Below are positions 46,566 to 64,000 of a stretch of 64,000 nt of DNA, piece by piece. A model generated the notes under the pieces. The model saw nothing but the letters and a program-made list of their open reading frames with translations. It did not search any database and was not told where the DNA came from. How positions within the stretch are numbered: position 1 is the first letter of the stretch; each line of letters opens with the position of its first letter. This DNA is from SAR86 cluster bacterium (lineage in GTDB: Bacteria > Pseudomonadota > Gammaproteobacteria > Magnimaribacterales > D2472): contig JABBBT010000057.1 in the NCBI GenBank assembly GCA_018607365.1, forward strand, positions 29,122 to 93,121. The letters run 5' to 3'. The translations under genes were made by a program, and so were the position numbers.

Positions 46566-46569
46566 AATC

Positions 46570-46764: not shown

Positions 46765-46765
46765 A

Positions 46766-49112: not shown

Positions 49113-50001
49113 CTATTATCTTTTGAACAACCTCATTATAACTCAAGCCCATAAACTCTCCTGACTTAGGAACACAGCTATGTGAAGTCATTCCAGGACT
49201 AGAATTTAATTCTAAAAAATAAAAGTCTCCATCGCTATTCTCAAGAATATCAACCCTAGCCCATCCGGAACACCCTAAAGCTTGGTAGGAATTTTTAGCA
49301 AAGTTTTTAATATTATTAACCCACTCATCACCATAATTTGCCTCAACTAAATCAGTATCATTGGATATGTATTTTGCATCATAGTCATAAAAACTATTTA
49401 CAGTTTTGATCTCTATAGGAGGCAAAACTAGATCCCCAATAATTGTTACAGTATATTCTTTGAATTTAATTGCTTCCTCAAGAATAAATGGTCCGTTAAG
49501 AGTATTTAATTTTTCTAAGGTTTCTTTATATTCATCTTTATTCTTGATCTCAAAAATATTAACACTTGAACCATCCATGGAAGGTTTAATAAAAAAATGA
49601 TCAAAGGGAATATCTTCATAACTTCTTTTAAAACTTAAAGAATTATTTATTTGGATTGAATCAGGTGTTTTCATTCCATTTTTTCTAATTAAATTTTTGC
49701 TAATTGATTTGTTCCAGCTATGAGAACAAGATTCTGCATTAGAGCCTGTATATGGAATTCCAATTGATTCAAGCCTTTTCTGTAATGCGCCACTTTCTCC
49801 CTCTTCTCCATGAAGAGCAATGAAAATAAAGTCAAAATTAATAAGAGCATGCAAATCATCAATGTCATTGATATCAAACTTTTTAGACTCATAGCCAAGT
49901 TCAATAATTGCGTCGAAGACTCTTTTACCGCTCTCTATGGAGACTTCTCTTTCCCCAGATGAACCCCCATAAAGCACTGCAATTTTATTTATACTTTCCA
50001 T
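49096..50001 (-). CDS. ddl: D-alanine--D-alanine ligase
   Basis: 301-aa ATP-grasp enzyme; LHGEEGESG and ELNSSPGMTSHS motifs. Confidence 0.93.
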   Translation of the reverse strand: MESINKIAVLYGGSSGEREVSIESGKRVFDAIIELGYESKKFDINDIDDLHALINFDFIFIALHGEEGESGALQKRLESIGIPYTGSNAESCSHSWNKSISKNLIRKNGMKTPDSIQINNSLSFKRSYEDIPFDHFFIKPSMDGSSVNIFEIKNKDEYKETLEKLNTLNGPFILEEAIKFKEYTVTIIGDLVLPPIEIKTVNSFYDYDAKYISNDTDLVEANYGDEWVNNIKNFAKNSYQALGCSGWARVDILENSDGDFYFLELNSSPGMTSHSCVPKSGEFMGLSYNEVVQKIIDASIA

Positions 50002-51374: not shown

Positions 51375-51375
51375 A

Positions 51376-52422
51376 TTACTTACTTAAATATTCTATTATT
51401 TTCGAGGATATAAAAGACGCAGCATTTAAGTGTTCTAAATTAGTCTTTGTTTTCCAATCATTATAAATTTTTTTATCAATAACTTGCGATAATTTAATTT
51501 CTAAATCACTTAGCCCATTTTCTTGGCTATGAACTATGCCCATACCAATATTTTCAATGTACTTAGCATTATAAAATTGATGGTTATCTATTGATGATGG
51601 CAAAGGGATCATCACCATACCTCTTCCCATAGATGATATTTCAGAAATGCTCAAGGCACCAGACCTTGTAATAACAAAATCTGACCATTCAATCAAAGAC
51701 TGAGGATTTTTATAAAACTCTTGAACCTCCGCATCGATATTTGCTTCTAGATATAAGGTTTTAACATCAGATAATTTTCCAACTCCACATTGATGTTTAA
51801 TATTTATCTTGCAATTAATTTGACCAAAAACTATTGGAAGATTCTTATTTAAATATTCTGCGCCCTGACTACCCCCGGTCACATATATATTAATATCATT
51901 ACTCGAATTAATATCTTGTGCTGGTTTTTTGGAAAATACATTCCTAATCGGGTTTCCACTAAAGATATTATTTTTTAAATTATTTTTTATAGGGAAGCCT
52001 AAAAAATTAAACGTAGAATGCTTTGAAAGCATTTTATTGGCCGAGCCTTGGATAGAATTTTGTTCATGGGTGAAAATAGGCTTCATCATAATCTTAAATG
52101 CTATTGCTGGGGGTACAGTTATAAAGCCACCAAAACCTATCATTGCATCTATTTTTTCTTTTCGTATTAAATTGATCACACTTATAATTCCAAGTGGTAT
52201 TAGAATAAGTGATTTAATTTTTAAGACTGTATTCTTCCCTCTAAATCCATTCATTTTTATAGTCTGATAATTGAAATCTTTACCACTAACAGCGTCTCTT
52301 TCTATCTTTTCTCCACCTCCCAGAAAAACTACATCATGACCGCTTTTTATGAACTCATCAGCAACTGCTATTGCTGGAAAAATATGCCCTCCTGTTTTTG
52401 CTGCGGAAACTAAAATTTTCAT
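51376..52422 (-). CDS. murG: undecaprenyldiphospho-muramoylpentapeptide beta-N-acetylglucosaminyltransferase
   Basis: 348 aa; AAKTGGHIFPA and the GT28 C-terminal domain. Confidence 0.93.
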   Translation of the reverse strand: MKILVSAAKTGGHIFPAIAVADEFIKSGHDVVFLGGGEKIERDAVSGKDFNYQTIKMNGFRGKNTVLKIKSLILIPLGIISVINLIRKEKIDAMIGFGGFITVPPAIAFKIMMKPIFTHEQNSIQGSANKMLSKHSTFNFLGFPIKNNLKNNIFSGNPIRNVFSKKPAQDINSSNDINIYVTGGSQGAEYLNKNLPIVFGQINCKINIKHQCGVGKLSDVKTLYLEANIDAEVQEFYKNPQSLIEWSDFVITRSGALSISEISSMGRGMVMIPLPSSIDNHQFYNAKYIENIGMGIVHSQENGLSDLEIKLSQVIDKKIYNDWKTKTNLEHLNAASFISSKIIEYLSK

Positions 52423-52426
52423 ATAC

Positions 52427-53536
52427 CTATATTAATTTGTTTTCATTGTTAATTCTAAGAACTATGGCTACCAAAGACATCATTATGATAATACTAGTTC
52501 CCCCATAGCTTATAAATGGCAAAGTTAAACCTTTTGTAGGAAGCAGCCCTATGTTTACGGCTATATTAAATAAGGCCTGCACAGCTATCAAAACAAAAAT
52601 ACCAAAAGAAACATATCCTTGAAATAGCCTTCCTTTTTTTAATGAATCTATAGTTATTTTTAAGATACCAATAAATAATATTACGAACAGAAATAATAAA
52701 AATAATCCCCCAATAACGCCCAATTCTTCGACAATAATCGCAAAAATAAAATCTGTATGAGCTTCTGGAAGAAAAAAGTTTTTTTGGAAGCTATTGCCTA
52801 TCCCGAGACCAAACCACCCACCTTGCCCTATTCCAATTAATGAATTCGAGAGCTGCCAACCAGCATTATTTACAACTTCTGGAGCAAATGGGTCTGTAAA
52901 TGCCATAACTCTAGCAATCCTCCATGGGGAGTTATAAACAGCCAAGTATCCGAGCAAGGCAATTAATACCGACAGAAGACTAAACTGGAAAAATGAAATC
53001 CCAGCATAAAAAAGAATAGCCACCACTAATAAACATATGATTGCAGTTGACCCTAAGTCTGGTTGACTCATAATCAACAAAGCGATTATAAATAATAGGA
53101 ATAAAGGTTTTAAGAAGCTTCTTAATGTATCTATCTCAGACATACGTCTAACCGAATATCCCGAAATATATAAAATTAAACTAAATTTACATATTTCTGA
53201 TGGCTGAATATTTATAGGCCCAGCTCTAATCCATCTAGTACTTCCATTCACAGTCGTTCCAACTTCTGGAAGAAACATTACAAATAATAGGATGATGCTA
53301 ATAAGCATGAAAACCCAATCAGATTTAAATAAAAAATCTGATGGTATAACAGAAAAAAATATCATTGATATTAGTCCAATTGAAATAAATAGCATCTGTC
53401 TTGATGCAAAGTGAAATGGGTTTCCATAATTTTCATCTGCAAAATAAATGCTAGCTGATGAAACCATAGTGATTCCTATTGCCATTAATGCTATAAAAGG
53501 TATTAATATAAGAAGATTGTTAACTTTATGATTCAT
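52427..53536 (-). CDS. ftsW: SEDS-family peptidoglycan polymerase FtsW
   Basis: 369 aa with about 10 TM helices; IQPSE and PEAHTDFIF motifs. Confidence 0.92.
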   Translation of the reverse strand: MNHKVNNLLILIPFIALMAIGITMVSSASIYFADENYGNPFHFASRQMLFISIGLISMIFFSVIPSDFLFKSDWVFMLISIILLFVMFLPEVGTTVNGSTRWIRAGPINIQPSEICKFSLILYISGYSVRRMSEIDTLRSFLKPLFLLFIIALLIMSQPDLGSTAIICLLVVAILFYAGISFFQFSLLSVLIALLGYLAVYNSPWRIARVMAFTDPFAPEVVNNAGWQLSNSLIGIGQGGWFGLGIGNSFQKNFFLPEAHTDFIFAIIVEELGVIGGLFLLFLFVILFIGILKITIDSLKKGRLFQGYVSFGIFVLIAVQALFNIAVNIGLLPTKGLTLPFISYGGTSIIIMMSLVAIVLRINNENKLI

Positions 53537-54557
53537 TAAATAATTTAGTTACGAGCGAATTAAATTTATTACCCCGGTCTTCAAAATTTTTATAATCCTT
53601 TCCACTTGGGTAGCCAGGTGAGAATAAAATATTTGAATCTATAGATATATTTCTTATGAATTGGAGGGCTTCTTTTAAATCATTAAGGATATGTATTTTG
53701 GGGTGAGAGACACATTTTATTATTTCATTTTTATGAGCTCCAAATATCAAAATACTCTCAGGCCCATCTATAGCTAGATTTTTAAACTGCTCTTTTTTTG
53801 GGCTCCCACATAAGAGAAGATGATATTGATTCATTCCAAAGTTCTTGTTAGCTTTATCCACTGCATAGTTTAATGAGTTTGAATTTGTGGACTTAGAGTC
53901 ATTAATAATTGAATTAGTTATTTTTTGAAATCTAAATGGCAAATCTTTAAGTTCTTGATGTTTTGGATTCTTTCCTGTGATCCATTGATATAGTTGAAAA
54001 GGATCGCTTTCATATGAAACGTTTTTTGCATTAAGTATTTTTTGCTTTGCTTTCTTATAATTTTCAAATGTCTCATGATAATCCAGGTGATCAGGAGTAA
54101 TATTCAATAAAATACCGAAATCTAAATCAGGCTTATTTGCCTTATCAAGCTGAAAACTTGAAAGTTCTATTATTGAATACTTGGAGCCATTATTGATATG
54201 GTCTAACATTGGATTTCCAATATTTCCAATTAAGTTAGCCTTGGAATGCTTTTGAAAAATTTGATGAAGGTGTGAGCAAGTAGTGCTTTTTCTATTTGTT
54301 CCAGTAACTCCAATTTTAATTGATCTGTCTTCTTGAAGAAAGATATCTAAATCGGTCAGCACTTCTGCTACAGATTTAAGAAGTTTGAATGTCTCCCTAT
54401 CAATACCAGGGCTGCAATAGATGGTTTTATAGGACTCCAGTTTTAAAATCTCTGAATCAAGTGATTTGTCATAAATATCATATTCAATATTTTTTACTTT
54501 CAAATATCTTTCAAAAGATTTGCCTGTAATGCCATAGCCATAAATCAGGGATTTCAT
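53526..54557 (-). CDS. murD: UDP-N-acetylmuramoylalanine--D-glutamate ligase (unusually short)
   Basis: GVTGTNRKSTT P-loop, NITPDHLDYH, and C-terminal-domain motifs PFRF, INDSKSTN, LFSPGYPSGKDYKNFEDRGNKF. It is only 343 aa, against 438 in E. coli. Confidence 0.85.
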   Translation of the reverse strand: MKSLIYGYGITGKSFERYLKVKNIEYDIYDKSLDSEILKLESYKTIYCSPGIDRETFKLLKSVAEVLTDLDIFLQEDRSIKIGVTGTNRKSTTCSHLHQIFQKHSKANLIGNIGNPMLDHINNGSKYSIIELSSFQLDKANKPDLDFGILLNITPDHLDYHETFENYKKAKQKILNAKNVSYESDPFQLYQWITGKNPKHQELKDLPFRFQKITNSIINDSKSTNSNSLNYAVDKANKNFGMNQYHLLLCGSPKKEQFKNLAIDGPESILIFGAHKNEIIKCVSHPKIHILNDLKEALQFIRNISIDSNILFSPGYPSGKDYKNFEDRGNKFNSLVTKLFNES

Positions 54558-54565
54558 TAATAATT

Positions 54566-55651
54566 TTATCTAAGTTTTAATGTTGCCAATGCAATTAAAA
54601 TTAACACAAGCGTAATAATCCAAAAACGTACAATAATTTTTGGTTCTGGCCAGCCTTTTAATTCGTAGTGATGATGAATTGGCGCCATTAAAAAAACTCT
54701 TTTCCCTCTTGTTTTAAATGAGATAACCTGAATTGCAACACTCAAAGTTTCGATAACAAATACACCAGCCATGATTGCAAAAACTAATTCATGCCGAAGT
54801 ATTATGGCTAATATCCCAAGAATAGCTCCTAGTGTTAGAGATCCAATATCTCCCATAAAGATTTGTGCAGGATATGTGTTGTACCAAAGAAAACCAATAC
54901 CTGAGCCAATCAATGCACCACAAAATACTATTAATTCTCCTGAAAGTTTTAAATGAGGAAGGTATAAGTAATCTGCAATTATTTGATTTCCCATGCTGTA
55001 CGCTATTAAACCAAGCGCTCCTGCAATGAGCACTGAAGGAAGAATGGCTAAGCCATCAAGACCATCAGTAAGATTAACGGCATTTGACGATCCTACAAGA
55101 ACAAACATTCCGGTAAAAATAAATACAAATGGGCTCATTGGAATTAATAGATCTTTAAAAAAGGGGACGATAAAAGAGGTTTCTGGAGCCGTCTCTGCAG
55201 AATAAAATAAATACGTTACTGATATAAACGAGAAAGCTATCTGTAAAATAATTTTTTGCTTGGAGGACAGGCCATCAGAGCTTTTTTTCTTTATCTTAAT
55301 ATAATCATCTGCAAATCCAATCGTTGCAAACGAAACTGTGACAAACAGCACTACCCATATATATCTATTACTTAAGTCGGCCCACAGTAGTGTTGAAATA
55401 ACTAATGATGACAAAATTAGAAGACCTCCCATTGTTGGAGTACCTGATTTTTTATAATGAGATTCTGGACCTTGCGTTCTAACATGCTGTTCGAATTGCA
55501 TAGACTTTAATATTTTTATAATTAATGGGCCCATTAAAATAGAAATCAAGAGGGCTGTTACTGCCCCTCCCAGGGTCCTTACAGTGAGATACCTTAGGAC
55601 ATCAAAACCAGGATCATAATCAACAAGTACAGTTCCTAAATATTCAAACAT
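54566..55651 (-). CDS. mraY: phospho-N-acetylmuramoyl-pentapeptide transferase
   Basis: 361 aa; NAVNLTDGLDGLA and PIHHHYE motifs. Confidence 0.96.
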   Translation of the reverse strand: MFEYLGTVLVDYDPGFDVLRYLTVRTLGGAVTALLISILMGPLIIKILKSMQFEQHVRTQGPESHYKKSGTPTMGGLLILSSLVISTLLWADLSNRYIWVVLFVTVSFATIGFADDYIKIKKKSSDGLSSKQKIILQIAFSFISVTYLFYSAETAPETSFIVPFFKDLLIPMSPFVFIFTGMFVLVGSSNAVNLTDGLDGLAILPSVLIAGALGLIAYSMGNQIIADYLYLPHLKLSGELIVFCGALIGSGIGFLWYNTYPAQIFMGDIGSLTLGAILGILAIILRHELVFAIMAGVFVIETLSVAIQVISFKTRGKRVFLMAPIHHHYELKGWPEPKIIVRFWIITLVLILIALATLKLR

Positions 55652-56981
55652 TTATAAATTTTTCCATTTGCATGCCTCTAGAGCCTTTTAAAAGTACAAC
55701 ATCATCTGATGATATATTTTGTTTTAAGAAAATTTTTAACTCATTTTCATTACTAAAAAACACACCATTTTTTCCAAATGCATCAACAGCATATTTTGTT
55801 AAATCACCAAAACCAAGAAAAATATCTATTTTCTTATGTGATGCATAATTCCCAATCTTTTTATGCATATACTTTCTCATTCTACCTAATTCAAGCATAT
55901 CTCCTAAAACTAATACTTTTCTTTTTTTGGAGTTTGATAAAAGGTCTATTGATTTTTTTACAGAATCTGGGTTTGCATTATAAGTATCATCTATTAGTGT
56001 TGACTTGTTAATCCAGCTGAATTGATCTTGTCTGCCCATTAACTTAATATTTTTAATATTTTTTACAATATCTTTTTCTGGCCTATTTAAAAAGAATAAT
56101 ACTGAGAAAGTAGCTAAAATATTTTTAACATTATGCTCTCCAGCAAGATTTGAGTTTATTCTCTGCTTAATATTATGTTTTGTAGACAAAATTGTGAAAG
56201 ATGTTTTATTGATACTATATTTTATATCTGCCGCATAAAAATCAGAATCTTTACTCAACCCAAAAGTAATAATAGAGATATCATTTCTCATCTCTCTCCA
56301 CTGACTTTGATGGTTTTTATTTTCAGATGGTATGACCAAACATCCATTTTTTTTAATATTAGATACCATCTCTGATTTAACCTTAAAAACCCCATTGATG
56401 TTTTTAAGGCTTTCAAGATGAGAACTGCCAATATTAGTAATCACTCCAACATCAGGCTTAAGGAAAGAACTTAAATAATGTATGTCGCCAAAATTAGCTG
56501 CACCCATTTCCATTACCAAGCTTGTAGAGGCTCTTTTTGCATTCATTATGCTCAGAGGCATTCCTATTTCATTATTGAAATTTTTTATGGTGCTTGAACT
56601 ACCCTTCAAGCATTGATAAATCATGCTAGTTGTTGATGTCTTTCCATTGCTACCAGTAATACCAACTATTTCACCTTCAAAACTACTTATTATATTTTTT
56701 GATATTCTTTTTAAAGCTTTTATAGAATCAGGTACATATATGATTTGCTTGTTCTTAGAATCTTTAAACTCTTTTCCGTCAGCGATTACAAGTGACGCGC
56801 CCTTTTTAATTGCCGTGTTTACATATTTGTTGCCATTAAAACTATTGCCCTTAATAGCTATAAATAATGCGTTTTTTCTTAAGGTTCTTGTGTCAGTAGA
56901 AATACTTTTTATGGGAATATTTTTTTTTACTGAGGTGCCTAAAAATTTTGATATGTCATTTGAATTACTTATAAATTTCAT
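55644..56981 (-). CDS. murF: UDP-N-acetylmuramoyl-tripeptide--D-alanyl-D-alanine ligase
   Basis: GITGSNGKTSTTSM and GEHNVKNILATFSV motifs. Confidence 0.93.
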   Translation of the reverse strand: MKFISNSNDISKFLGTSVKKNIPIKSISTDTRTLRKNALFIAIKGNSFNGNKYVNTAIKKGASLVIADGKEFKDSKNKQIIYVPDSIKALKRISKNIISSFEGEIVGITGSNGKTSTTSMIYQCLKGSSSTIKNFNNEIGMPLSIMNAKRASTSLVMEMGAANFGDIHYLSSFLKPDVGVITNIGSSHLESLKNINGVFKVKSEMVSNIKKNGCLVIPSENKNHQSQWREMRNDISIITFGLSKDSDFYAADIKYSINKTSFTILSTKHNIKQRINSNLAGEHNVKNILATFSVLFFLNRPEKDIVKNIKNIKLMGRQDQFSWINKSTLIDDTYNANPDSVKKSIDLLSNSKKRKVLVLGDMLELGRMRKYMHKKIGNYASHKKIDIFLGFGDLTKYAVDAFGKNGVFFSNENELKIFLKQNISSDDVVLLKGSRGMQMEKFINV

Positions 56982-58461
56982 TTATCACCCCATGATCACT
57001 AAAAAAAACTTTTTTACCAGATACCTCTTGAGTCACTTCATGTCCCTTTCCAAGTATAACTAAGCAATCATCTTTACCTATGAGCTTGCTACCTTGAATA
57101 ATTGCCTCTCTCCTGTCTTCTATTGAAATAACTTTTTCATGATCATTCCCTTTTAGAGCATCATTAAAAATTGAATTAAAACTTTCACTTCTTGAATTGT
57201 CAGAAGTAAAAATTATTTTACTAGCATTGCCTATGGCAGCTTTCATCATTTTAGGTCTTTTTAATTTATCTCTATCACCCCCACATCCAAATACGACTAC
57301 AATTTTTTTAAAGTAGTTTTTAATTGATAATAAAAATAATTCTATTCCTTCTGCATTATGAGCAAAATCAATTATTACATTTGCAGGTATATTATTAATT
57401 AATTCCGTTCTTCCTTTGGGAAGGGTTAGATAATTAAGATCGTTTATTTTTATTTGTGAAAAATCAGCAAAACCAATAGAACATATTCCAAATACTAAAT
57501 TTTCAATATTAAATTCAGGGAATAGATTGCATGAAAATTTATATTTCTGATTATATGAAGGAAAATAACCTATTGGAGGATTATTTATAATGATATTAAA
57601 TAAAGATTGCTCTTTATCAATAGAAACTATTTCGTAATAAATATCAGCAGACTTATTTTTTTTACTTATTGTTGTTAGCTGATGTTTAGAATTTTTTAGA
57701 TACTCATATTTATCTTTATGTGGAGCGAGATCCTCATTTATCAACATTAGTGGGCTGGAAGGGTTAAATATTTGAAACTTTATATCAGTGTATTCTTTTA
57801 AGCTGCCATGGTAATCGAGATGGTCTGTTCCAATATTAAGAAGAGCTGCTGAATTATAAAAAGAAATACCTTTGAGCCTTTCTTGAGATAGCGCATGTGA
57901 AGATATCTCAATACAAACTGATACTGAGTCATTGAAATTATAAAAACTAAAAATTTTAAAAAATTCAAAAATATCAGGTGTTGTTTTTGAAGATATGCTT
58001 TTATTTATTTCTTCATTATTATATTTTGTTCCCAGTGTTCCTATATAAATTGATTCATAGCCACTTTTTACCAACATCTGATGGGTTAAGTAAGCTGTAG
58101 ATGTTTTCCCATTTGTTCCAGTAAAGGCAAAGTAATTATTTTTACTTTGAATATCAACAAGTTTATAGAATTCCTCTAAAAATAAAAAAACTTTATTTTT
58201 TTGAGTATGTGAATCAAAAATACATAAGTCTTCAACATAAATAATATTTTCTTTATTCGATAAGTATTCCAAATCATTATGAATGACCATTGAGGCACCA
58301 AGCTCAATCGCATGTGAAATATATTTACTTCCGTGAGCATGCAAGCCATCAAGTGCAAAGAAAACAAATCCATCTTTAATATTATGAGAGTTATTGGTAA
58401 CTCCATTGATATTTATATTTTTTGGAAAATTAATTCCTAATATTTTTTCTAAACTATTCAT
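56965..58461 (-). CDS. murE: UDP-N-acetylmuramoyl-L-alanyl-D-glutamate--2,6-diaminopimelate ligase
   Basis: FTGTNGKTSTA, GTDHLDYHG and GCGGDRD motifs. I prefer ATG 58461 over the track's TTG 58476. Confidence 0.9.
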   Translation of the reverse strand: MNSLEKILGINFPKNININGVTNNSHNIKDGFVFFALDGLHAHGSKYISHAIELGASMVIHNDLEYLSNKENIIYVEDLCIFDSHTQKNKVFLFLEEFYKLVDIQSKNNYFAFTGTNGKTSTAYLTHQMLVKSGYESIYIGTLGTKYNNEEINKSISSKTTPDIFEFFKIFSFYNFNDSVSVCIEISSHALSQERLKGISFYNSAALLNIGTDHLDYHGSLKEYTDIKFQIFNPSSPLMLINEDLAPHKDKYEYLKNSKHQLTTISKKNKSADIYYEIVSIDKEQSLFNIIINNPPIGYFPSYNQKYKFSCNLFPEFNIENLVFGICSIGFADFSQIKINDLNYLTLPKGRTELINNIPANVIIDFAHNAEGIELFLLSIKNYFKKIVVVFGCGGDRDKLKRPKMMKAAIGNASKIIFTSDNSRSESFNSIFNDALKGNDHEKVISIEDRREAIIQGSKLIGKDDCLVILGKGHEVTQEVSGKKVFFSDHGVINEIYK

Positions 58462-60073
58462 CTTCTGAATATCCAAGATAGTTTAGAGAACTATCAGCTA
58501 TTTTTTTAAATAATGGTGCTGCGATCATTCCACCTGAGTATGCATTTAAACCAGGCTCATCGATTGAGACAAAAATTGTTAGCGACTTATCAGAGAGGGG
58601 AGCTATGCCAACAAATGAAGCTCTATATGAATCTTCTGCATAGCCATTACCGTAAGATGTTTTATGAACTGTGCCAGTTTTACCTCCCTCAGTATAGCCA
58701 TTAATATCTGCATTTTTTCCAGTTCCAATATGAACTACCTCTTTTAAAGCTTCCAGAGTATGTTTTGCAGAATCTTCAGAGATAACTCTCTTTAGACCTA
58801 CTTCATCAGTCTTCAGTATCTTAAAATCTTTATATATACCTTTGTTTGCAAATACAGAATATGCTGAAGTTATCTGAAAAGGGCTAATGGTTAGGCCATA
58901 ACCATAACCCAGGCTTGCTAGCTCCTTATCTGATATTTTATCCTTTATGTTCATTAATCCGAATGCCGATGAGGGGAAGTTTATTGATATTGGTTTACCA
59001 AAACCAAAATTATAGTAAGCATCTTTTAATTTCTCATAACCAAGCATAATAGCAATTTTGGAAGCTCCAACTTGACTTGAATAAGCAATTACTTGTTTGG
59101 GGGTAAGTTCCTCATAACTCTTATAGTCGCTGATAATTTTGTCATTTATCTTTAACCTTCTTGGAATTTCAATAGGTATATCAGGATCAAAAATATTATT
59201 ATCAATTGCTGAGGAAAGTAGGATTGGCTTAAGTACTGACCCTAACTCGTATGCATCTATAAGCGCTCTGTTTTTCTGTATTACCCTGCTAGGGTCATTT
59301 GGATTATATGAGGGATAGCTAGCAACAGCTAAGACCTCTCCACTCATGTTATCAAATACAAGAGCTGTACCTGCCTTAGCTTTATTTTCTTTAATGGCTT
59401 CCGCTAAAAACTTATAAGCATAGAATTGTATAGTGGAATCTATAGTCAGTACTATATCCCTTCCTTGGATAGCTTTATCTACCTCGATTGGTTTTGAGAT
59501 AATCTTTTGTTTAGCATTCTTATAAAATTTTTCCTTACCATTTTTACCAGAAAGTACAGAGTCATAGCTTTTTTCAAGCCCTTCTTGTGCTCTGTCTTTA
59601 CCATAAAAACCTACAAGCGGTGCTATTTGATCTCCTAAAGGATAATGTCTACTATGTCTTACTTCAACTTCAAGTTTATTGTTTTTAAGAGTTTCAATAA
59701 TTAACTGCTCGTTTCTAGATAGCCCTTTCTTGATTAAAGTTTTCTTTGAGAAGGATTCATTAATATTGAGATCCTCATCTAAAGAGATAATATCTTTAAT
59801 CGATATAAATTTTGCTAACTCTAAACCTTTAAGGGCATAAAGATCATAGTTAATAATAGAAACAGCCAATGGGAAGTTATTTCTATCGTAAATAGTTCCT
59901 CTAACTGGGTTAATATTTCTATACTTTATATATTTTTTCTTACCTTCATTTTTTAAAAAAATACTGTCATCTATTTGCAAAGAAATAATTTTGTAGGCAA
60001 TAGCAAAAATAGATAAACTAAAAAAAGAACATACTAAAATAAAGCGCCAATTTATAATACTAATTTTCTTCAT
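58454..60073 (-). CDS. ftsI: peptidoglycan D,D-transpeptidase FtsI (PBP3)
   Basis: 539 aa; N-terminal TM helix, SxxK (GSVLKP) and KTG (GGKTGT) motifs. Confidence 0.93.
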   Translation of the reverse strand: MKKISIINWRFILVCSFFSLSIFAIAYKIISLQIDDSIFLKNEGKKKYIKYRNINPVRGTIYDRNNFPLAVSIINYDLYALKGLELAKFISIKDIISLDEDLNINESFSKKTLIKKGLSRNEQLIIETLKNNKLEVEVRHSRHYPLGDQIAPLVGFYGKDRAQEGLEKSYDSVLSGKNGKEKFYKNAKQKIISKPIEVDKAIQGRDIVLTIDSTIQFYAYKFLAEAIKENKAKAGTALVFDNMSGEVLAVASYPSYNPNDPSRVIQKNRALIDAYELGSVLKPILLSSAIDNNIFDPDIPIEIPRRLKINDKIISDYKSYEELTPKQVIAYSSQVGASKIAIMLGYEKLKDAYYNFGFGKPISINFPSSAFGLMNIKDKISDKELASLGYGYGLTISPFQITSAYSVFANKGIYKDFKILKTDEVGLKRVISEDSAKHTLEALKEVVHIGTGKNADINGYTEGGKTGTVHKTSYGNGYAEDSYRASFVGIAPLSDKSLTIFVSIDEPGLNAYSGGMIAAPLFKKIADSSLNYLGYSEDE

Positions 60074-60344
60074 CTGAATATTTAATATATATTTTTTTTG
60101 CTTTTTTCTTAATCATACCAAGCTCTTCTTTTGCAGATTTTTCGATACTTGCAGGTGAGTTATTTGTATTAAATTGAGTAATTAACTTAAGATTCGTATC
60201 TTTAAAATCTTCATATTCTTTTCTTAAATTCTCCTGATTTGAATGCAATCTACTTATTTCAAAAGATAATTTGATCTGTTCCAAAGAAATAAAACAAACC
60301 ACAAATAACAAGAATAATAAAATAATATTATTTAATTTAGTCAT
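60060..60344 (-). CDS. ftsL: cell division protein FtsL
   Basis: 94 aa with a single TM helix and coiled coil, between rsmH and ftsI. Confidence 0.8.
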   Translation of the reverse strand: MTKLNNIILLFLLFVVCFISLEQIKLSFEISRLHSNQENLRKEYEDFKDTNLKLITQFNTNNSPASIEKSAKEELGMIKKKAKKIYIKYSDEEN

Positions 60345-61237
60345 TATATTTTTTTAAAAACTCTCATAATTGCACTTCTTGAGCGCTTATTTAAAGCAAC
60401 CTCCTCTTCTGTGGGCCTAATTTTTTTGGCGATGCATTTAAAGTCTTTTTCTTCTATTGTGTTTAAAGGAATATCTTTAGGGAAATTCATTACACTTGGC
60501 TTAAAAAATTCTTTCACTATATTATCTTCCAGAGAATGGAAAGAAATTACAACAATGATACCGTTTTTGACAAGAATATTGCTAGCTTGTTCCAGGGACT
60601 CTTTGAGTTCACCTAACTCATTATTGATATGTATTCTGAAGGCTTGGAAGGATTTGGTAGCTGGATGGATTTTTTTTCTTTTTTCTGGATATATATCTTC
60701 AATAATATTTGCTAGCTGAATAGTGGATTTAATTTCATTTTTTGATCTATGATCTAAAATTGAGCTTGAAATGATTTTTGCATGTTTTTCATCTCCATAT
60801 TTATATAAAATATCCATAATTTCTTTTTGAGTTGCTTTTTTAAGCCATGCTGATAACGGGATACCCTTCGTGACATTAAATCTCATATCTAAAGGACCAT
60901 CATGGAGGAAACTAAAACCTCTGTTGCCTTCATCAAAATGAGTGGAGCAAGTACCTAAATCGTATAGAATTCCATCAACAGTTTCCTTATCAAAAGTATT
61001 TTCTAATTTATTGAATGAGTTATGGATTGCATTAAAATTTTTATTTTTAATGAGTGCTGCATGGTTAAATGCATCTAAATCTTTATCGAATGATGTTAGT
61101 TCAGCATCGGCATCTATTCTATTTAAAATAGATTGAGTGTGGCCGCCTCTTCCATATGTACAGTCTACATATTTACCATTTTTTTTGTGGATGAGAAAAT
61201 CTAAAGACTCTTCCAGTAATACTGGAAAATGAAGCAT
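60344..61237 (-). CDS. rsmH: 16S rRNA m4C1402 methyltransferase RsmH (MraW)
   Basis: HFPVLLEE and DCTYGRGGH motifs, 297 aa. Confidence 0.95.
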   Translation of the reverse strand: MLHFPVLLEESLDFLIHKKNGKYVDCTYGRGGHTQSILNRIDADAELTSFDKDLDAFNHAALIKNKNFNAIHNSFNKLENTFDKETVDGILYDLGTCSTHFDEGNRGFSFLHDGPLDMRFNVTKGIPLSAWLKKATQKEIMDILYKYGDEKHAKIISSSILDHRSKNEIKSTIQLANIIEDIYPEKRKKIHPATKSFQAFRIHINNELGELKESLEQASNILVKNGIIVVISFHSLEDNIVKEFFKPSVMNFPKDIPLNTIEEKDFKCIAKKIRPTEEEVALNKRSRSAIMRVFKKI

Positions 61238-61238
61238 A

Positions 61239-62351
61239 TCAATCTACTTGTTTTCGCATAAAAGTTGGCACATCAAGGAAATCAATTTCCGCTGCAGACG
61301 ATGTGCCCCCTTTTTGATCTATGTCATCTCTTCTTAACCCTACTGGATTTAATTGAATTGATGGTTGGTTATCTATTACTAATGTAGGAGCTCTCTGATC
61401 TACACCTGTTGCGACTATTGTTACTAATAAATCATCATCAACGGTTTCATCATAAACTAGACCATAAATAATATTTGCTTCTTCATGTATTATTTCTTCG
61501 ACAATATCTGCTACTTCCGTTTGGTCTCCAAGAGTTGGTTTTGCAGCAGTAATATTTACGAGAACACCTCTTGCATTCTTAAGGTTGATATCCTCAAGTA
61601 ACTCGCTTTTAACAGCTTGGGTTGCCGCTGCTTCTGCTCTGTTTTTTCCACTTGCTCTTCCTGTTCCCATCATAGCGATGCCTTTTTCCGACATAACAGT
61701 TTTAACATCTGCAAAGTCAACATTGATGTGACCTTTTTTCATAATAATGTCTGATATTCCTTGAACTGCGCCTTTTAAAACATCATCTGCTTTTGCAAAA
61801 GCATCTTGCATAGGAGTATCTTCTCCAAGAATTTCATAAAGTTTTTGATTTGGAATTGTGACAAGACTATCAACTTCCTCTACCAATGAGGCCAGACCCT
61901 TCTCAGCTGCAGACATTCTTCTTTTACCTTCAAACTTAAATGGTTTTGTGACCACTGCTACTGTAAGTGCACCCAATTCTTTGGCAATAGATGCTACTAC
62001 TGGGGCAGCTCCTGTTCCAGTACCGCCTCCCATTCCTGCTGTTATAAATACCATATCTGCTCCAACTAAGAGCTCTTCTATTGCAAGTCTGTCACTTTCC
62101 GCTGCTTTTCTGCCAACATCAGGATTAGCACCAGCACCAAGGCCTTTTGTTAATCCATTACCTAATTTTAATGTAATTGCACCATTTGCCTCTGATAATG
62201 CTTGAGTGTCCGTATTTGCACAAATAAAATCAACACCTTCGATATTATGATTAATCATATGAATGACTGCATTTCCACCAGCACCACCTACACCTACAAC
62301 TTTTATTTTTGCGTTTTCTACTGCCTGGCCTATTACTTCAAAATTCATCAT
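61239..62351 (-). CDS. ftsZ: cell division GTPase FtsZ (in a non-canonical position)
   Basis: 370 aa; GVGGAGGNAV, the tubulin signature GGGTGTGAAP, and the conserved C-terminal peptide DFLDVPTFMRKQ. AGGGGA Shine-Dalgarno; 10 nt after the mraZ stop and 1 nt before the rsmH start. Confidence 0.96.
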   Translation of the reverse strand: MMNFEVIGQAVENAKIKVVGVGGAGGNAVIHMINHNIEGVDFICANTDTQALSEANGAITLKLGNGLTKGLGAGANPDVGRKAAESDRLAIEELLVGADMVFITAGMGGGTGTGAAPVVASIAKELGALTVAVVTKPFKFEGKRRMSAAEKGLASLVEEVDSLVTIPNQKLYEILGEDTPMQDAFAKADDVLKGAVQGISDIIMKKGHINVDFADVKTVMSEKGIAMMGTGRASGKNRAEAAATQAVKSELLEDINLKNARGVLVNITAAKPTLGDQTEVADIVEEIIHEEANIIYGLVYDETVDDDLLVTIVATGVDQRAPTLVIDNQPSIQLNPVGLRRDDIDQKGGTSSAAEIDFLDVPTFMRKQVD

Positions 62352-62361
62352 TTATCCCCTA

Positions 62362-62829
62362 TTAAAATGACATTGATTTAACACTTTCTGGAAGAACTAC
62401 ATCTAGAATTTCTGTAGACAAAGATCCACCCATTTGTCTCATTTCCCAATTATTTATGTTCCAGACTTCAAATTTTTCGCCCATGCCAACCAAAGAAATC
62501 TGTTTTTGATCATTTATATCAGCATACTTTCTTAACTCTGCCGGAATTAATACAAGCATTCTTCCTTCAACATCTAGGTCTATAACATGTGCATTACCTA
62601 ATATAGTCCATTGGAGGCTTCTAACTATAGGATCTAACCCCTGCAATGACTGAAGTTTATTGGAAATTTCATTCCATTCTGATTCGGGATAAATTTTTAA
62701 AGATGGGTATTGTGGATCTTTAGTTACAACAATTTTTGTTTCATTTTTTTCTAATAAATTAGAGCGATATTTAGCTGGGATAGCCAACCTACCTTTAGAA
62801 TCTAATGAAACTGTATTAAAACCATACAT
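62362..62829 (-). CDS. mraZ: transcriptional regulator MraZ
   Basis: 155 aa from ATG 62829 (MYGFNTVSLDSKGRLAIPAKYR) with two DxxxR motifs (DSKGR, DVEGR). The track's longer ORF from 62877 would translate the operator repeats. Confidence 0.9.
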   Translation of the reverse strand: MYGFNTVSLDSKGRLAIPAKYRSNLLEKNETKIVVTKDPQYPSLKIYPESEWNEISNKLQSLQGLDPIVRSLQWTILGNAHVIDLDVEGRMLVLIPAELRKYADINDQKQISLVGMGEKFEVWNINNWEMRQMGGSLSTEILDVVLPESVKSMSF

Positions 62830-62877
62830 GGTCAAAATATATAGACTTTTTACACACTTTGCAACACATTTACACAC
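62830..62877 (-). promoter_or_regulatory. Pmra-like promoter overlapped by three MraZ-type direct repeats
   Basis: On the minus strand, GTGTG (62877..62873), GTGTT (62867..62863) and GTGTG (62857..62853) sit at an exact 10-bp period (5-nt box plus 5-nt spacer). TTGCAA (62864..62859), 17 nt, then TATATT (62841..62836), which ends 6 nt before the mraZ ATG. Confidence 0.6.
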
Positions 62878-62912
62878 TTTTTCTCACGCATGATATGTAA
62901 CAGAAAAAATAT

Positions 62913-63241
62913 GAGTTGGTCTATAAGCCGGATTCTGTAAATGATGATCATCTATCTAGATATTATGTTGCCATAATATTCATGCAACCTACCCAAATCC
63001 TAAGCGAGCAGCTTAATTGGATTTCTATTTGGTCTTGCTTCGGACTGGGGTTTACAATGCCTTACTTGTCTCCAACTAAGCGGTAGGCTCTTACCCCACC
63101 ATTTCACCCTTACCAATTAAAATTGGCGGTATACTTTCTGTTGCACTTTCCGTAGGCTCGCGCCTCCCAGGTGTTACCTGGCGTCCTGCTCTATGAAGTC
63201 CGGACTTTCCTCTAGTAAACTAGCGATCACCCAACCAACTC
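62913..63241 (-). ncRNA. rnpB: RNase P RNA (bacterial type A), compact ~329 nt
   Basis: The reverse complement contains GAGGAAAGTCCGGAC (CR-I), GTGCAACAGAAAG, GGTAAGGGTGAAATGGTGGGGTAAGAGC and ACAGAATCCGGCTTAT (CR-V). P1 pairs 5' GAGTTGGT with 3' ACCAACTC. Lies between mraZ and rsmI as in Pseudomonas. Confidence 0.92.
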
Positions 63242-63257
63242 ACTTTATTATAGTTTG

Positions 63258-64000
63258 TTAATCAAGTAGTTGCTTGTAAATATCTCTTTTATTTTCTTTT
63301 GACAAAAGTGAGATCAATTTTGCTGCATCTTTTGCAGGCAAAAACCTTAAAAAAGAATCCTTTACTTTTTTATCAAGAATAAAACTTGGCTTATCTGTTA
63401 CAGAACTTTCGATAACAATTACAAATTCACCTTTAAGGACCACTAAGCCATCCTTCACTCTTAACGATACTTCCTCTATAGTTCCTCTCTCAATTGTTTC
63501 ATGAATCTTTGTCATCTCTCTGCATAATGCAATTTTTTTAGTTAATGAATACTCCTCTTTTAAAACATTTAAAGTATCTTCGATTCTTTTTGCAGACTCA
63601 AAAAGAATAATTGTATTTTTTTCATGCCTTAAAAAACTAATGAACTCTTTTTTTTGACTTTTTTTTCTTGGGACAAAACCAAGAAAAGAAAAGCTAGAGG
63701 TTGATAGCCCAGACATTACTAAGGCACTAATCACCGATGATGGTCCTGGCACTAGAGAGAATATAATATCTTCTTTTATGCATTGCTGAATAAGATAATA
63801 CCCTGGGTCTGATACTGAAGGAGTTCCAGCATCTGAAACTAATACAATTTCATTCTGTTTATTTAGTAACTCTATAATATCGTGACTTACAGTTTCTTCG
63901 TTATGCTCATGAAGAGTTCTGCATTTCTTATCAATCTTTAGAAAATGAAGGAGTTTATTAGTTACTCTAGTATCTTCTGCATAGATATAATCTGCTTTTT
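63258..64000 (-). CDS. rsmI: 16S rRNA 2'-O-methyl-C1402 methyltransferase RsmI, C-terminal ~247 aa (5' end beyond the window end)
   Basis: The track ORF (63258..63752) continues in frame upstream to the window edge: ...ADYIYAEDTRVTNKLLHFL...VSDAGTPSVSDPGYYL...LVPGPSSVISAL. Confidence 0.88.
   Translation of the reverse strand, partial: KADYIYAEDTRVTNKLLHFLKIDKKCRTLHEHNEETVSHDIIELLNKQNEIVLVSDAGTPSVSDPGYYLIQQCIKEDIIFSLVPGPSSVISALVMSGLSTSSFSFLGFVPRKKSQKKEFISFLRHEKNTIILFESAKRIEDTLNVLKEEYSLTKKIALCREMTKIHETIERGTIEEVSLRVKDGLVVLKGEFVIVIESSVTDKPSFILDKKVKDSFLRFLPAKDAAKLISLLSKENKRDIYKQLLD

What the first reader, a model, noticed from the sequence alone, without database searches (positions are those of the whole stretch)
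61239..62351. ftsZ relocated to the promoter-proximal end of the dcw operon, between mraZ and rsmH
Seen in sequence: the minus-strand order is mraZ-ftsZ-rsmH-ftsL-ftsI-murE-murF-mraY-murD-ftsW-murG-murC-ddl-ftsQ-ftsA. A full-length FtsZ is present, with the tubulin signature and the C-terminal FtsA/ZipA-binding peptide. It is wedged 10 nt after the mraZ stop and 1 nt before the rsmH start, and has its own AGGGGA Shine-Dalgarno. Established knowledge: the near-universal order ends ...ftsQ-ftsA-ftsZ(-lpxC), and in E. coli the high FtsZ:FtsA ratio depends on internal promoters in ddlB/ftsQ/ftsA. Inference: ftsZ is now the second gene behind the MraZ-controlled promoter and about 14 kb upstream of ftsA. 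A high FtsZ:FtsA ratio could therefore come from operon polarity alone, and MraZ would directly gate FtsZ supply. This would be a rewired, minimal division-control circuit.
Basis: partly seen in the sequence, partly recalled or inferred. Interest (0 to 1): 0.6.

Follow-up and report, generated by a model that had tools for sequence, protein, structure and literature searches.

The report
SAR86 moved ftsZ behind mraZ
In a large branch of SAR86, among the most abundant bacteria in the surface ocean, the key cell-division gene ftsZ has moved from the far end of the highly conserved division/cell-wall operon to second place, directly behind the repressor gene mraZ and its operator; this is a real, ancient, lineage-wide rewiring that the searchable literature does not mention.

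Summary
On the minus strand the order is rsmI, rnpB, mraZ, ftsZ, rsmH, ftsL, ftsI, murE, murF, mraY, murD, ftsW, murG, murC, ddl, ftsQ, ftsA, then rpsF. All gaps are -23 to +10 nt. The organism is SAR86 (Magnimaribacterales).

It is not a mis-assembly. The same order occurs in 13 independent assemblies, down to 69% FtsZ identity, including MED-G82 (family D2472/Suzuki).

A second SAR86-labelled branch ("type B") has the same flanks on both sides but a different change: mraZ-rsmH-ftsL-ftsQ-ftsA-ftsZ-ftsI...ddl | rpsF. All 73 outgroup loci with upstream sequence keep ftsA-ftsZ. FtsZ trees agree with neighbouring genes, so the gene moved within the genome.

A MraZ operator (GTGT boxes, 6-nt spacers; the only match in the 64 kb) overlaps the predicted -35. 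mraZ has no Shine-Dalgarno and is probably leaderless. ftsZ has the best-placed strong Shine-Dalgarno in the cluster.

A hairpin inside the 3' end of ftsZ is conserved only in the window's branch. It coincides with the strongest synonymous constraint in the gene.

Co-transcription, polarity and MraZ gating are inferred, not shown. Verdict: new variant of a known system, moderately high interest.

The parts
63258..64000 (-). rsmI (3' part; runs off the window): ancestral upstream neighbour
   Evidence: tblastn and Pfam TP_methylase on counterparts in related loci. The same neighbour is present in type A and type B.
62908..63242 (-). rnpB, RNase P RNA class A, immediately upstream of the operator on the same strand
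   Evidence: Rfam RF00010, 323 bits, E 2e-105. It is followed by a T-run.
62854..62887 (-). MraZ operator: GTGA(62887-62884)-N6-GTGT(62877-62874)-N6-GTGT(62867-62864)-N6-GTGT(62857-62854)
   Evidence: The pattern GTGK-N6-GTGK-N6-GTGK has one match in 64 kb against 0.01 expected. This matches the published consensus of three GTG(G/T) boxes with 6-nt spacers (PMC12957436). A four-box version is found just upstream of mraZ in the 10 type-A lineages printed (L115 not printed), and is the only such match in the seven loci scanned whole. The canonical three-box version is present in type B.
62836..62864 (-). Predicted sigma-70 promoter: -35 TTGCAA (62864-62859), 17-nt spacer, -10 TATATT (62841-62836). 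The -10 ends 6 nt before the mraZ ATG.
   Evidence: Consensus scan, 9 of 12 matches. This is a prediction only. A -10-like element 7-13 nt before the ATG and the absence of a Shine-Dalgarno recur in type A.
62362..62829 (-). mraZ (155 aa), no Shine-Dalgarno, probably leaderless
   Evidence: Pfam MraZ, two repeats, 78 bits. The alignment to Mycoplasma MraZ structures keeps the DNA-contact Lys/Arg/Arg residues. Anti-SD duplex energy is -0.4 kcal/mol.
62355..62360 (-). Shine-Dalgarno AGGGGA of ftsZ
   Evidence: Read from sequence. Anti-SD duplex is -6.4 kcal/mol, strongest in the window's cluster and well placed. An AGGGG motif is conserved in all type-A lineages.
61239..62351 (-). ftsZ (370 aa from the first ATG; probably 369 aa from the ATG at 62348)
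   Evidence: Pfam Tubulin plus FtsZ_C. PDB 2VAW at 400 bits. Alignment with relatives.
61267..61307 (-). Candidate RNA hairpin inside the ftsZ coding region, 25 nt before the stop codon: GGCACAUCG-UCUGCAG-[inner stem]-UGAUGUGCC
   Evidence: The 9-bp outer stem is 100% paired in 11 type-A sequences, with one compensatory CG-to-UA change and GU/GC/AU at the closing pair. It coincides with the lowest synonymous-codon entropy window of the whole gene, 0.505 against a mean of 1.15. Folding energy is -12.8 to -18.5 kcal/mol, z -2.3 to -4.2. It is absent in type B. No Rfam family matches.
60344..61237 (-). rsmH (mraW); its start lies 1 nt after the ftsZ stop
   Evidence: Pfam Methyltransf_5, 315 bits.
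48480..60344 (-). ftsL, ftsI, murE, murF, mraY, murD (short, 343 aa), ftsW, murG, murC, ddl, ftsQ, all overlapping or at most 8 nt apart
   Evidence: Pfam. Gap table.
47261..48487 (-). ftsA, last gene of the cluster, followed after 81 nt by rpsF-rpsR-rplI-dnaB-alr instead of ftsZ-lpxC
   Evidence: Pfam FtsA/SHS2. The same junction is present in L112 and L113.

Best explanation
This is the single, vertically inherited ftsZ of a SAR86 (Magnimaribacterales) bacterium. An ancient transposition within the cluster moved it from the 3' end of the dcw operon (after ftsA) to the slot between mraZ and rsmH. It has stayed there throughout a deep SAR86 branch (type A).

Proposed mechanism:
- The 16-gene, 15.6-kb cluster is transcribed mainly from one promoter just downstream of rnpB.
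- MraZ binds GTGT boxes that overlap the -35 and represses that promoter.
- The mRNA starts at or within a few nt of the mraZ ATG, so MraZ is made sparingly from a leaderless or Shine-Dalgarno-less start.
- ftsZ comes next. It has the best-placed strong Shine-Dalgarno in the cluster and receives maximal transcript dosage and efficient translation.
- rsmH and the following genes lack good Shine-Dalgarno sequences and are mostly translationally coupled, so they are made at lower levels. ftsA, 14 kb further on, is exposed to natural polarity.
- A conserved hairpin in the last 70 nt of ftsZ may punctuate the transcript (by attenuation, processing or stabilisation) at the ftsZ/rsmH boundary.

Shown: gene identity, gene order, clade-wide conservation, intragenomic origin, presence of the operator, Shine-Dalgarno pattern, and hairpin conservation. 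Inferred: transcription start, co-transcription, MraZ repression, expression gradient, and hairpin function.
For: Identity and order.

Independent assemblies with the same junctions: L001-L009 and L115-L118. The 3' end, ftsA then rpsF, is conserved in L112 and L113; L112 lies on the same 228-kb contig as L001.

Outgroups: 73 of 73 gamma/betaproteobacterial loci with upstream sequence have ftsA-ftsZ. lpxC follows in 4 of the 5 examined outgroups and in L107.

Intragenomic origin: FtsZ alone groups type A with type B in 194 of 200 bootstraps, like MraY, FtsW, MurG and MurD at 200 of 200. Both flanks are shared between type A and type B.

Single copy: TIGR00065 is never counted above once per SAR86 genome in the visible part of Table S1 of PMC11582366; the window holds no second ftsZ.

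Operator: unique match against 0.01 expected, fitting the published consensus. It is conserved and specific to the region upstream of mraZ. The MraZ DNA-contact residues are kept.

Promoter geometry.

Shine-Dalgarno energies: ftsZ -6.4 to -7.8 kcal/mol against mraZ -0.4 to +2.7 in three type-A lineages.

Compactness: all gaps are -23 to +10 nt and there is no terminator-like site at the mraZ-ftsZ-rsmH junctions.

Hairpin.

Background: position in long operons, including E. coli mraZ-ftsZ, affects expression timing and amplitude (PMC10081379).
Against: There is no transcript, transcription-start or protein-abundance data.

The promoter scan is not informative in this AT-rich DNA: 62 hits against 86 +/- 10 in shuffles. 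Internal promoters, for example inside mraZ or ddl/ftsQ, cannot be excluded.

murF has an equal or stronger anti-SD match in two of the three lineages (-6.0 and -8.4 kcal/mol), and ftsA keeps a conserved GGAG upstream (-5.6 to -6.0 kcal/mol). The FtsZ:FtsA ratio therefore need not rest on polarity.

Type B keeps the ftsA-ftsZ order, so placing ftsZ ahead of ftsA is not required in SAR86.

The hairpin lies inside translated sequence, an awkward place for a terminator or a 3' stabiliser. Its covariation support is thin: one compensatory pair, and shuffle controls of 42-63 out of 500.

The sister relationship of types A and B rests on neighbour-joining trees of long branches, where long-branch attraction is possible, plus shared synteny.
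Confidence: 0.6

Rival explanations
1. The rearrangement is neutral and has no regulatory meaning. The dcw order became 'unlocked' in the fast-evolving, streamlined SAR86 lineage. ftsZ landed behind mraZ by chance and is still expressed mainly from its own promoter embedded in upstream coding sequence. MraZ control and polarity play no special role.
For: Two different arrangements exist within SAR86, showing relaxed order constraint. SAR86 is reported to have a fast evolutionary clock (PMC11582366). Promoters cannot be excluded in AT-rich coding DNA. In E. coli, mraZ deletion has little phenotype (my own background knowledge, not tested here).
Against: Each arrangement has been frozen across very deep divergence: about 60% identity over five conserved proteins within type A. 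The junctions are seamless at 8-16 nt and 1-5 nt, and the Shine-Dalgarno is conserved. Both changes moved ftsZ towards the promoter. The cluster stayed contiguous, with the operator retained. Type A also evolved an SD-less mraZ and a type-specific constrained hairpin at the new ftsZ/rsmH junction.
Confidence: 0.27
2. A foreign ftsZ was inserted behind mraZ by horizontal transfer, and the original ftsZ after ftsA was then lost (xenologous replacement).
For: The window's FtsZ is only 53-58% identical to other gammaproteobacterial FtsZ. The insertion is clean.
Against: FtsZ shows the same distance pattern as MraY, FtsW, MurG and MurD: 59% identity to type B, 58% mean to outgroups. It groups with type-B SAR86 FtsZ in 194 of 200 bootstraps. 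Its GC content (0.387) is like that of ftsA (0.380). Its nearest non-SAR86 relatives are gammaproteobacterial, as for the neighbouring genes.
Confidence: 0.03
3. The order is an assembly chimera or mis-join at 61230-61245 and 62350-62365.
For: None found. The only anomaly is one JGI contig (L114) with a 61-nt deletion at the mraZ/ftsZ junction.
Against: The order is identical in ENA, NCBI, JGI and Tara short-read assemblies, long-read contigs of 0.86-1.05 Mb (with matching proteins indexed on contigs up to 1.26 Mb) and a single-cell genome (AG-313-N18), across lineages differing by up to 31% in FtsZ. L114 itself keeps mraZ-ftsZ-rsmH.
Confidence: 0.01

Closest known systems
Canonical proteobacterial dcw operon (E. 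coli / Pseudomonas type: mraZ-rsmH-ftsL-ftsI-murE-murF-mraY-murD-ftsW-murG-murC-ddl-ftsQ-ftsA-ftsZ-lpxC)
   Same: The gene set is the same (15 of 15 genes), all on one strand and tightly packed, with mraZ first and a GTG(G/T)-box operator upstream. The rsmI-rnpB-mraZ upstream context is the same as I recall for Pseudomonas (from memory; the outgroup loci held here do not reach it).
   Different: ftsZ sits at position 2, splitting the normally inseparable mraZ-rsmH pair. ftsA is the terminal gene and is followed by rpsF rather than ftsZ-lpxC-secA. mraZ lacks a Shine-Dalgarno and leader. MurD is about 90 aa shorter. All 73 outgroup loci examined keep ftsA-ftsZ.
SAR86 'type B' dcw cluster (L054, L086-L102; records labelled SAR86 cluster bacterium)
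   Same: Same flanks on both sides (sspA-lpoA-rsmI-rnpB upstream, rpsF-rplI-dnaB downstream). Same gene set, same operator, and ftsZ likewise displaced towards the promoter. It is sister to type A in trees.
   Different: The whole ftsQ-ftsA-ftsZ block sits between ftsL and ftsI, so ftsA-ftsZ adjacency and mraZ-rsmH adjacency are both kept. In L087 and L088 mraZ has a Shine-Dalgarno and a longer leader. MurD is full length (430 aa). There is no hairpin or synonymous constraint at the ftsZ 3' end.
Mollicute minimal division cluster (mraZ-mraW-ftsA*-ftsZ, e.g. Mycoplasma genitalium)
   Same: ftsZ lies within a few genes of an MraZ-controlled promoter with AAAGTGT-type boxes, in a reduced genome (PMC12957436, PMC8475190).
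   Different: That arrangement arose by loss of the cell-wall genes, not by moving ftsZ. mraZ-mraW remain adjacent, and ftsZ is last rather than second.

Membership tests
FtsZ (bacterial tubulin homologue) | Tubulin/FtsZ GTPase domain plus FtsZ C-terminal domain | tested here: met
   Pfam PF00091 at 165 bits and PF12327 at 87 bits, both well above their cut-offs. PDB FtsZ 2VAW at 400 bits.
FtsZ (bacterial tubulin homologue) | GGGTG(T/S)G nucleotide-binding signature and T7 synergy loop NxDxxD | tested here: met
   GGGTGTG at residues 108-114 and NVDFAD at 210-215, invariant among 9 relatives.
FtsZ (bacterial tubulin homologue) | Conserved C-terminal peptide that binds FtsA/ZipA | tested here: met
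   The protein ends in IDFLDVPTFMRKQVD, invariant in type A. ZipA is a marker present in SAR86 genomes (PMC11582366 Table S1). Binding itself was not tested.
FtsZ (bacterial tubulin homologue) | Sole division FtsZ of the genome (not a paralogue) | tested here: inconclusive
   There is no second copy in the 64-kb window. TIGR00065 is never counted above once per SAR86 genome in the visible, truncated part of a published table. The whole genome of this organism could not be scanned.
FtsZ (bacterial tubulin homologue) | GTP-dependent polymerisation and Z-ring formation | not testable with these tools
   Needs biochemistry or imaging.
Canonical dcw operon | Complete gene set on one strand, contiguous | tested here: met
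   16 genes from mraZ to ftsA, with gaps of -23 to +10 nt.
Canonical dcw operon | Conserved order with mraZ-rsmH adjacent and ...ftsQ-ftsA-ftsZ at the 3' end | tested here: not met
   ftsZ lies between mraZ and rsmH, and ftsA is followed by rpsF. The window is therefore filed as a variant, not a canonical member.
MraZ-regulated promoter (Pmra type) | Three or more GTG(G/T) boxes with about 10-nt phasing immediately upstream of mraZ | tested here: met
   GTGA-N6-GTGT-N6-GTGT-N6-GTGT at 62854-62887. The strict three-box pattern is unique in the window against 0.01 expected. It is conserved in relatives. The consensus is taken from PMC12957436.
MraZ-regulated promoter (Pmra type) | MraZ with two repeats and the DNA-contact Lys/Arg/Arg residues | tested here: met
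   Pfam MraZ with two stretches. LDSKGR and DVEGR align with the K13/R15/R86 region of Mycoplasma MraZ structures.
MraZ-regulated promoter (Pmra type) | MraZ binding and repression of transcription; position of the transcription start | not testable with these tools
   Needs EMSA, reporter assays and 5'-end mapping. Only a consensus -35/-10 prediction is available.
Known structured RNA (Rfam) for the ftsZ 3' hairpin | Match to a curated covariance model | tested here: not met
   Between 40000 and 64000 only RNase P RNA passes the gathering threshold.

The most novel reading that the evidence does not exclude
The two deep branches of SAR86 each re-engineered the otherwise near-immutable dcw operon so that ftsZ sits close to a single MraZ-gated promoter. 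Type A moved ftsZ alone to position 2. Type B moved ftsQAZ to positions 4-6. On this reading, the moves adapt streamlined cells that have lost the internal promoters and regulators that normally set FtsZ dosage. In type A the design would be completed by a leaderless, poorly translated mraZ, a strong ftsZ Shine-Dalgarno, and a novel coding-region hairpin that punctuates the transcript after ftsZ. The result would be a minimal autoregulated MraZ-FtsZ module that sets division timing in one of the ocean's most abundant bacteria.
Probability: 0.35. Interest if true: 0.75.

Novelty: new variant of a known kind. Interest (0 to 1): 0.6.

Why it matters
The dcw cluster is regarded as one of the most order-conserved gene clusters in bacteria, on a par with ribosomal clusters (PMC8871954). 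Known variation is mostly gene loss or fragmentation.

Here the cluster stays intact, but its most dosage-sensitive gene has been repositioned. This happened in two different ways within one order, SAR86, which makes up about 2-6% of surface-ocean microbial communities (PMC11582366). That gives a natural experiment on why ftsZ normally sits last and how the FtsZ:FtsA ratio and division timing are set when internal promoters are scarce.

It also links MraZ, a widely conserved regulator with an elusive physiological role, directly to FtsZ supply.

There are two practical consequences. ftsZ transcript counts are used as in-situ growth indices for marine bacteria, including SAR86 (PMC13349992). 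These may not be comparable across taxa if SAR86 ftsZ is expressed as a promoter-proximal operon gene. The mraZ-ftsZ-rsmH junction is also a simple synteny marker for SAR86 sub-lineages.

Tried and rejected
1. The exhaustive representative search with FtsZ was meant to find lineages of intermediate identity. The library's 50% clusters absorb SAR86, so the best hit was 48-60% identical and the result was uninformative.

Only five SAR86-labelled genomes were sampled, so the distribution across the four named SAR86 families could not be settled.

3. Two cluster-member look-ups gave only the labels 'Gammaproteobacteria bacterium' and 'SAR86 cluster bacterium', with no family names. Supplement look-ups placed only MED-G82 (D2472/Suzuki).

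4. The promoter/terminator consensus scan found fewer promoter-like sites than shuffles and no terminator at the junctions. It cannot decide whether internal promoters exist.

5. Folding the mraZ/ftsZ junction (z 0.04) showed no structure there.

6. lpxC and a second ftsZ were sought in the window by tblastn. Neither was found.

7. Literature searches found no description of this arrangement. Megrian et al. 2022 on dcw evolution is not in the searchable library, so it could not be checked.

8. Derivation of type A from type B, or the reverse, was considered. Either direction needs at least two further transpositions, against one each from a canonical ancestor, so independent origin is preferred but not proven.
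Full report
1. WHAT IS IN THE WINDOW

ORF listing and Pfam scans give this order on the minus strand:
- rsmI (63258 to beyond 64000)
- RNase P RNA (62908-63242; Rfam 323 bits)
- mraZ (62362-62829)
- ftsZ (61239-62351)
- rsmH (60344-61237)
- ftsL, ftsI, murE, murF, mraY, murD, ftsW, murG, murC, ddl
- a 210-aa membrane protein in the ftsQ position
- ftsA (47261-48487)
- then rpsF-rpsR-rplI-dnaB-alr

The ftsZ product is a complete FtsZ. It has the Tubulin and FtsZ_C domains, GGGTGTG, the T7 loop NVDFAD, and the C-terminal peptide IDFLDVPTFMRKQVD. Its closest solved relative is Pseudomonas aeruginosa FtsZ at 400 bits.

There are 10 nt from the mraZ stop to the first ATG, holding an AGGGGA Shine-Dalgarno, and 1 nt from the ftsZ stop to the rsmH ATG. 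Relatives begin MN(W/F)E, and an identical 369-aa protein exists in the databases (P0003). The true start is therefore probably the second ATG at 62348.

Every gap from mraZ to ftsA is between -23 and +10 nt. The window contains no lpxC and no second ftsZ.

2. ORGANISM AND ARTEFACT CHECK

The window has 33% GC. Its FtsZ has hundreds of marine-metagenome relatives at 69-100% identity. The named genomes among them are SAR86 cluster bacteria, the order Magnimaribacterales (PMC11582366).

The mraZ-ftsZ-rsmH order is present in every relative whose context I could read:
- L001-L005
- L006-L009, which include MAG MED-G82 and single-cell genome AG-313-N18
- L115-L118

These come from ENA, NCBI, JGI and Tara assemblies. 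They include long-read contigs of 0.86-1.05 Mb, and matching proteins are indexed on contigs up to 1.26 Mb. In the lineages examined, the gaps are 8-16 nt (mraZ to ftsZ) and 1-5 nt (ftsZ to rsmH), and the AGGGG Shine-Dalgarno is always there.

The 3' end, ddl-ftsQ-ftsA followed by rpsF-rpsR-rplI-dnaB-alr, is confirmed on the same 228-kb contig as L001 (L112) and in a lineage with 74% FtsA identity (L113). In L113 the ftsQ-position protein has a weak FtsQ_DivIB_C hit.

Mis-assembly is excluded. MED-G82 belongs to GTDB family D2472, the 'Suzuki' family. I call this arrangement type A.

3. COMPARISON WITH OTHER BACTERIA

In all 73 non-SAR86 gamma/betaproteobacterial loci that had sequence upstream of ftsZ, ftsA immediately precedes ftsZ. 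lpxC follows ftsZ in four of the five outgroups I examined and in L107.

A second set of abundant marine genomes is also labelled SAR86 cluster bacterium: L054 and L086-L102. Their FtsZ is about 54% identical to the window's, and their proteins occur on contigs up to 1.5 Mb. They show a different non-canonical order, type B: mraZ-rsmH-ftsL-ftsQ-ftsA-ftsZ-ftsI-murE-murF-mraY-murD-ftsW-murG-murC-ddl, followed by rpsF-rplI-dnaB.

Types A and B share both flanks:
- Upstream: rplM-rpsI-petABC-sspA, then lpoA on the opposite strand, then rsmI-rnpB. As I recall the Pseudomonas layout, yraN-diaA-yraP-sspB would lie between sspA and lpoA and are missing here; this was not tested.
- Downstream: the rpsF operon takes the place of lpxC-secA.

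Neighbour-joining trees of MraY+FtsW+MurG+FtsZ+MurD place A and B as sister clades in 200 of 200 bootstraps. FtsZ alone gives 194 of 200, like each neighbouring gene. Both are long branches, so long-branch attraction is a caveat. The shared rare junctions point the same way, however.

Two conclusions follow. FtsZ was inherited vertically and moved within the cluster. The last common ancestor already had a cluster bounded by rnpB and rpsF.

From a canonical internal order, type A needs one transposition (ftsZ to behind mraZ). Type B also needs one (ftsQAZ to behind ftsL, or equivalently ftsI...ddl to the end). Converting A into B or B into A needs at least two. Independent origin is therefore the more parsimonious reading, but it is an inference.

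Each type contains family-level diversity. Within type A, five conserved proteins are about 60% identical. Within type B, MurG drops to 48%. This fits the published split of the order into Suzuki + CHAB-I-7 and Magnimaribacteraceae + RedeBAC7D11. Only the Suzuki assignment of type A is actually documented here.

4. REGULATORY ANATOMY

[quoted passage not shown] That pattern occurs once in the 64-kb window, at 62854-62877 on the coding strand just upstream of mraZ, against 0.01 expected. A fourth, imperfect box (GTGA, 62884-62887) is in phase.

A four-box version lies just upstream of mraZ in each of the 10 type-A lineages printed, and is the only such match in the seven loci scanned whole. Type B has the canonical three boxes.

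The window's MraZ keeps the Lys/Arg/Arg residues that contact DNA in the Mycoplasma structures.

The only good -35/-10 pair in the intergenic region is TTGCAA (62864-62859), a 17-nt spacer, then TATATT (62841-62836). The -35 lies between boxes 3 and 4, so bound MraZ would occlude it.

The -10 ends 6 nt before the mraZ ATG. In other type-A lineages a -10-like element lies 7-13 nt before the ATG. None has a Shine-Dalgarno: anti-SD duplex energy is -0.4 to +2.7 kcal/mol. mraZ is therefore probably leaderless or nearly so.

By contrast, ftsZ has a strong anti-SD match at good spacing in type A (-6.4 to -7.8 kcal/mol). It is the strongest in the window and in L005; in L001 murF is stronger (-8.4), and in the window murF is close behind (-6.0). 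ftsA keeps a conserved GGAG at longer spacing (-5.6 to -6.0). Most other genes overlap their predecessor and lack a Shine-Dalgarno.

In type B, mraZ of L087 and L088 has a Shine-Dalgarno and a leader of about 70 nt.

No terminator-like site lies between mraZ and rsmH.

5. A TYPE-A-SPECIFIC HAIRPIN IN THE END OF ftsZ

Folding the ftsZ/rsmH junction revealed a two-tier hairpin at 61267-61307, inside the codons for G-T-S-S-A-x-E-I-D-F-L-D-V-P.

In 11 type-A sequences the 9-bp outer stem is paired in 100% of cells. L118 carries a compensatory change (GGC to GGT with GTG to GTA, i.e. C-G to U-A). L115 has A-U to G-U. The closing pair varies among G-U, G-C and A-U. The shuffle controls are only mildly significant (42-63 of 500) because the sequence hardly varies.

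That invariance is itself the stronger signal. There are 188 codon columns with an invariant, degenerate amino acid. Their mean codon entropy is 1.15 bits and only 7% have an invariant codon. The lowest 12-column window in the whole gene is residues 349-364, at 0.505 bits, which is exactly the hairpin. Codons just outside the stem vary freely: Pro362 has 1.36 bits.

The hairpin folds at -12.8 to -18.5 kcal/mol (z -2.3 to -4.2) in every lineage tested. Type B has neither the peptide motif, nor the hairpin, nor C-terminal synonymous constraint. No Rfam family matches.

Its function is unknown. My best guess is transcript punctuation at the new ftsZ/rsmH boundary, by attenuation, processing or stabilisation of a mraZ-ftsZ message. 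Its position inside translated sequence is awkward for a classical terminator, so I hold this loosely.

6. HOW IT MOST LIKELY WORKS

- Shown: gene identities, gene order, clade-wide conservation, vertical origin, operator presence, Shine-Dalgarno pattern, hairpin conservation.
- Inferred: one MraZ-repressible promoter drives the 15.6-kb unit. The message begins at about the mraZ ATG, so little MraZ is made. ftsZ receives full transcript dosage and efficient initiation. Downstream genes are made at lower, coupled rates. ftsA, 14 kb away, is subject to polarity.
- Background: the need for a high FtsZ:FtsA ratio, and its dependence in E. coli on promoters inside ddlB, ftsQ and ftsA, is established knowledge that I recall rather than tested. 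Single-cell work shows that position within long operons, including mraZ-ftsZ, changes the timing and amplitude of expression after replication (PMC10081379).
- Against an over-reading: type B keeps ftsA upstream of ftsZ, and ftsA has its own GGAG. The safest common denominator is 'ftsZ brought close to the promoter', not 'ratio set by polarity alone'.

7. RIVALS

- Neutral drift of gene order cannot be excluded (about 0.27). However, both events moved ftsZ promoter-ward, each has been frozen over deep time, and type A acquired matching changes (SD-less mraZ, hairpin).
- Xenologous replacement is unlikely (0.03), given congruent trees and GC content.
- Mis-assembly is excluded.

8. KNOWN OR NEW

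The SAR86 isolate and pangenome paper does not mention ftsZ, dcw or cell division. Full-text searches for SAR86 with ftsZ or mraZ, for dcw rearrangements, and for mraZ-ftsZ adjacency found nothing describing this. A broad dcw survey reports mainly gene losses and fragmentation (PMC8871954). One major dcw-evolution paper (Megrian et al. 2022) is not in the library, so prior mention cannot be fully excluded.

I rate the finding as a new variant of a known kind, with interest 0.6. It is surprising to a cell-division specialist and directly testable with existing metatranscriptomes. So far it remains a comparative-genomic observation with an inferred mechanism.

Noticed in passing
window 61267-61307 (-), inside ftsZ; same place in L001, L004, L006-L009, L115-L118: A conserved two-tier RNA hairpin lies in the codons for GTSSAxEIDFLDVP. 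It coincides with the strongest synonymous constraint of the whole gene and shows one compensatory change. It is absent in type-B SAR86 and has no Rfam family. It may be a transcript-punctuation element at the ftsZ/rsmH boundary.
   Followed up: partly
L054, L086-L102 (related loci): A second abundant SAR86-labelled branch has another non-canonical dcw order: mraZ-rsmH-ftsL-ftsQ-ftsA-ftsZ-ftsI-...-ddl | rpsF. Its flanks are the same as the window's on both sides.
   Followed up: yes
window 62829-62900 (-) and the equivalent region of all type-A loci: mraZ has no Shine-Dalgarno, and the predicted -10 ends 6-13 nt before its ATG. This suggests a leaderless or near-leaderless mraZ mRNA. In type B, L087 and L088 have a leader of about 70 nt with a Shine-Dalgarno.
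   Followed up: partly
L114 (JGI Ga0309838_1012504) versus window 62352-62412: This contig matches the window exactly over the ~140 nt compared around the junction, and its FtsZ part is 100% identical, but it carries a 61-nt deletion. The deletion removes the last 16 codons of mraZ, its stop codon and the ftsZ Shine-Dalgarno, giving an in-frame 525-aa MraZ-FtsZ fusion (P0002). It is unclear whether this is a real allele or an assembly error.
   Followed up: partly
window 53526-54557 (-); L001 17715-18746; L005 8686-9747: MurD of type A is only 343-353 aa (364 aa as called on the frameshifted contig L004), against 430-450 aa in type B and in solved structures. About 85 residues are deleted internally after the central-domain ATP-binding part. 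Pfam detects no Mur_ligase_C, although the C-terminal motifs still align. In the window the P-loop reads GTNRKST where relatives have GTNGKST.
   Followed up: partly
window 48480-49112 (-): The ftsQ-position protein (210 aa) has no Pfam hit even at E = 1, and neither does its type-B counterpart. Only the L113 orthologue shows a weak FtsQ_DivIB_C hit. SAR86 FtsQ appears to be highly divergent.
   Followed up: partly
window 62908-63242 (-): RNase P RNA sits between rsmI and the dcw operator on the same strand, about 20 nt from the first MraZ box. Read-through from this highly expressed gene into the dcw operon is conceivable. The same spacing between rsmI and mraZ is seen in type B.
   Followed up: no
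L047, L029 (other marine gammaproteobacteria); L108, L110: Some unrelated loci show compacted dcw clusters that lack murF, mraY, murG and ddl between rsmH and ftsA (L047). Others have ftsZ about 1 kb after murG (L108, L110). This shows further dcw diversity in uncultured marine bacteria.
   Followed up: no
window 46000-64000: Sigma-70-like promoter matches are fewer than in shuffled sequence: 62 against 86 +/- 10, both strands. This may reflect selection against spurious promoters inside the operon, or it may simply be codon structure.
   Followed up: no
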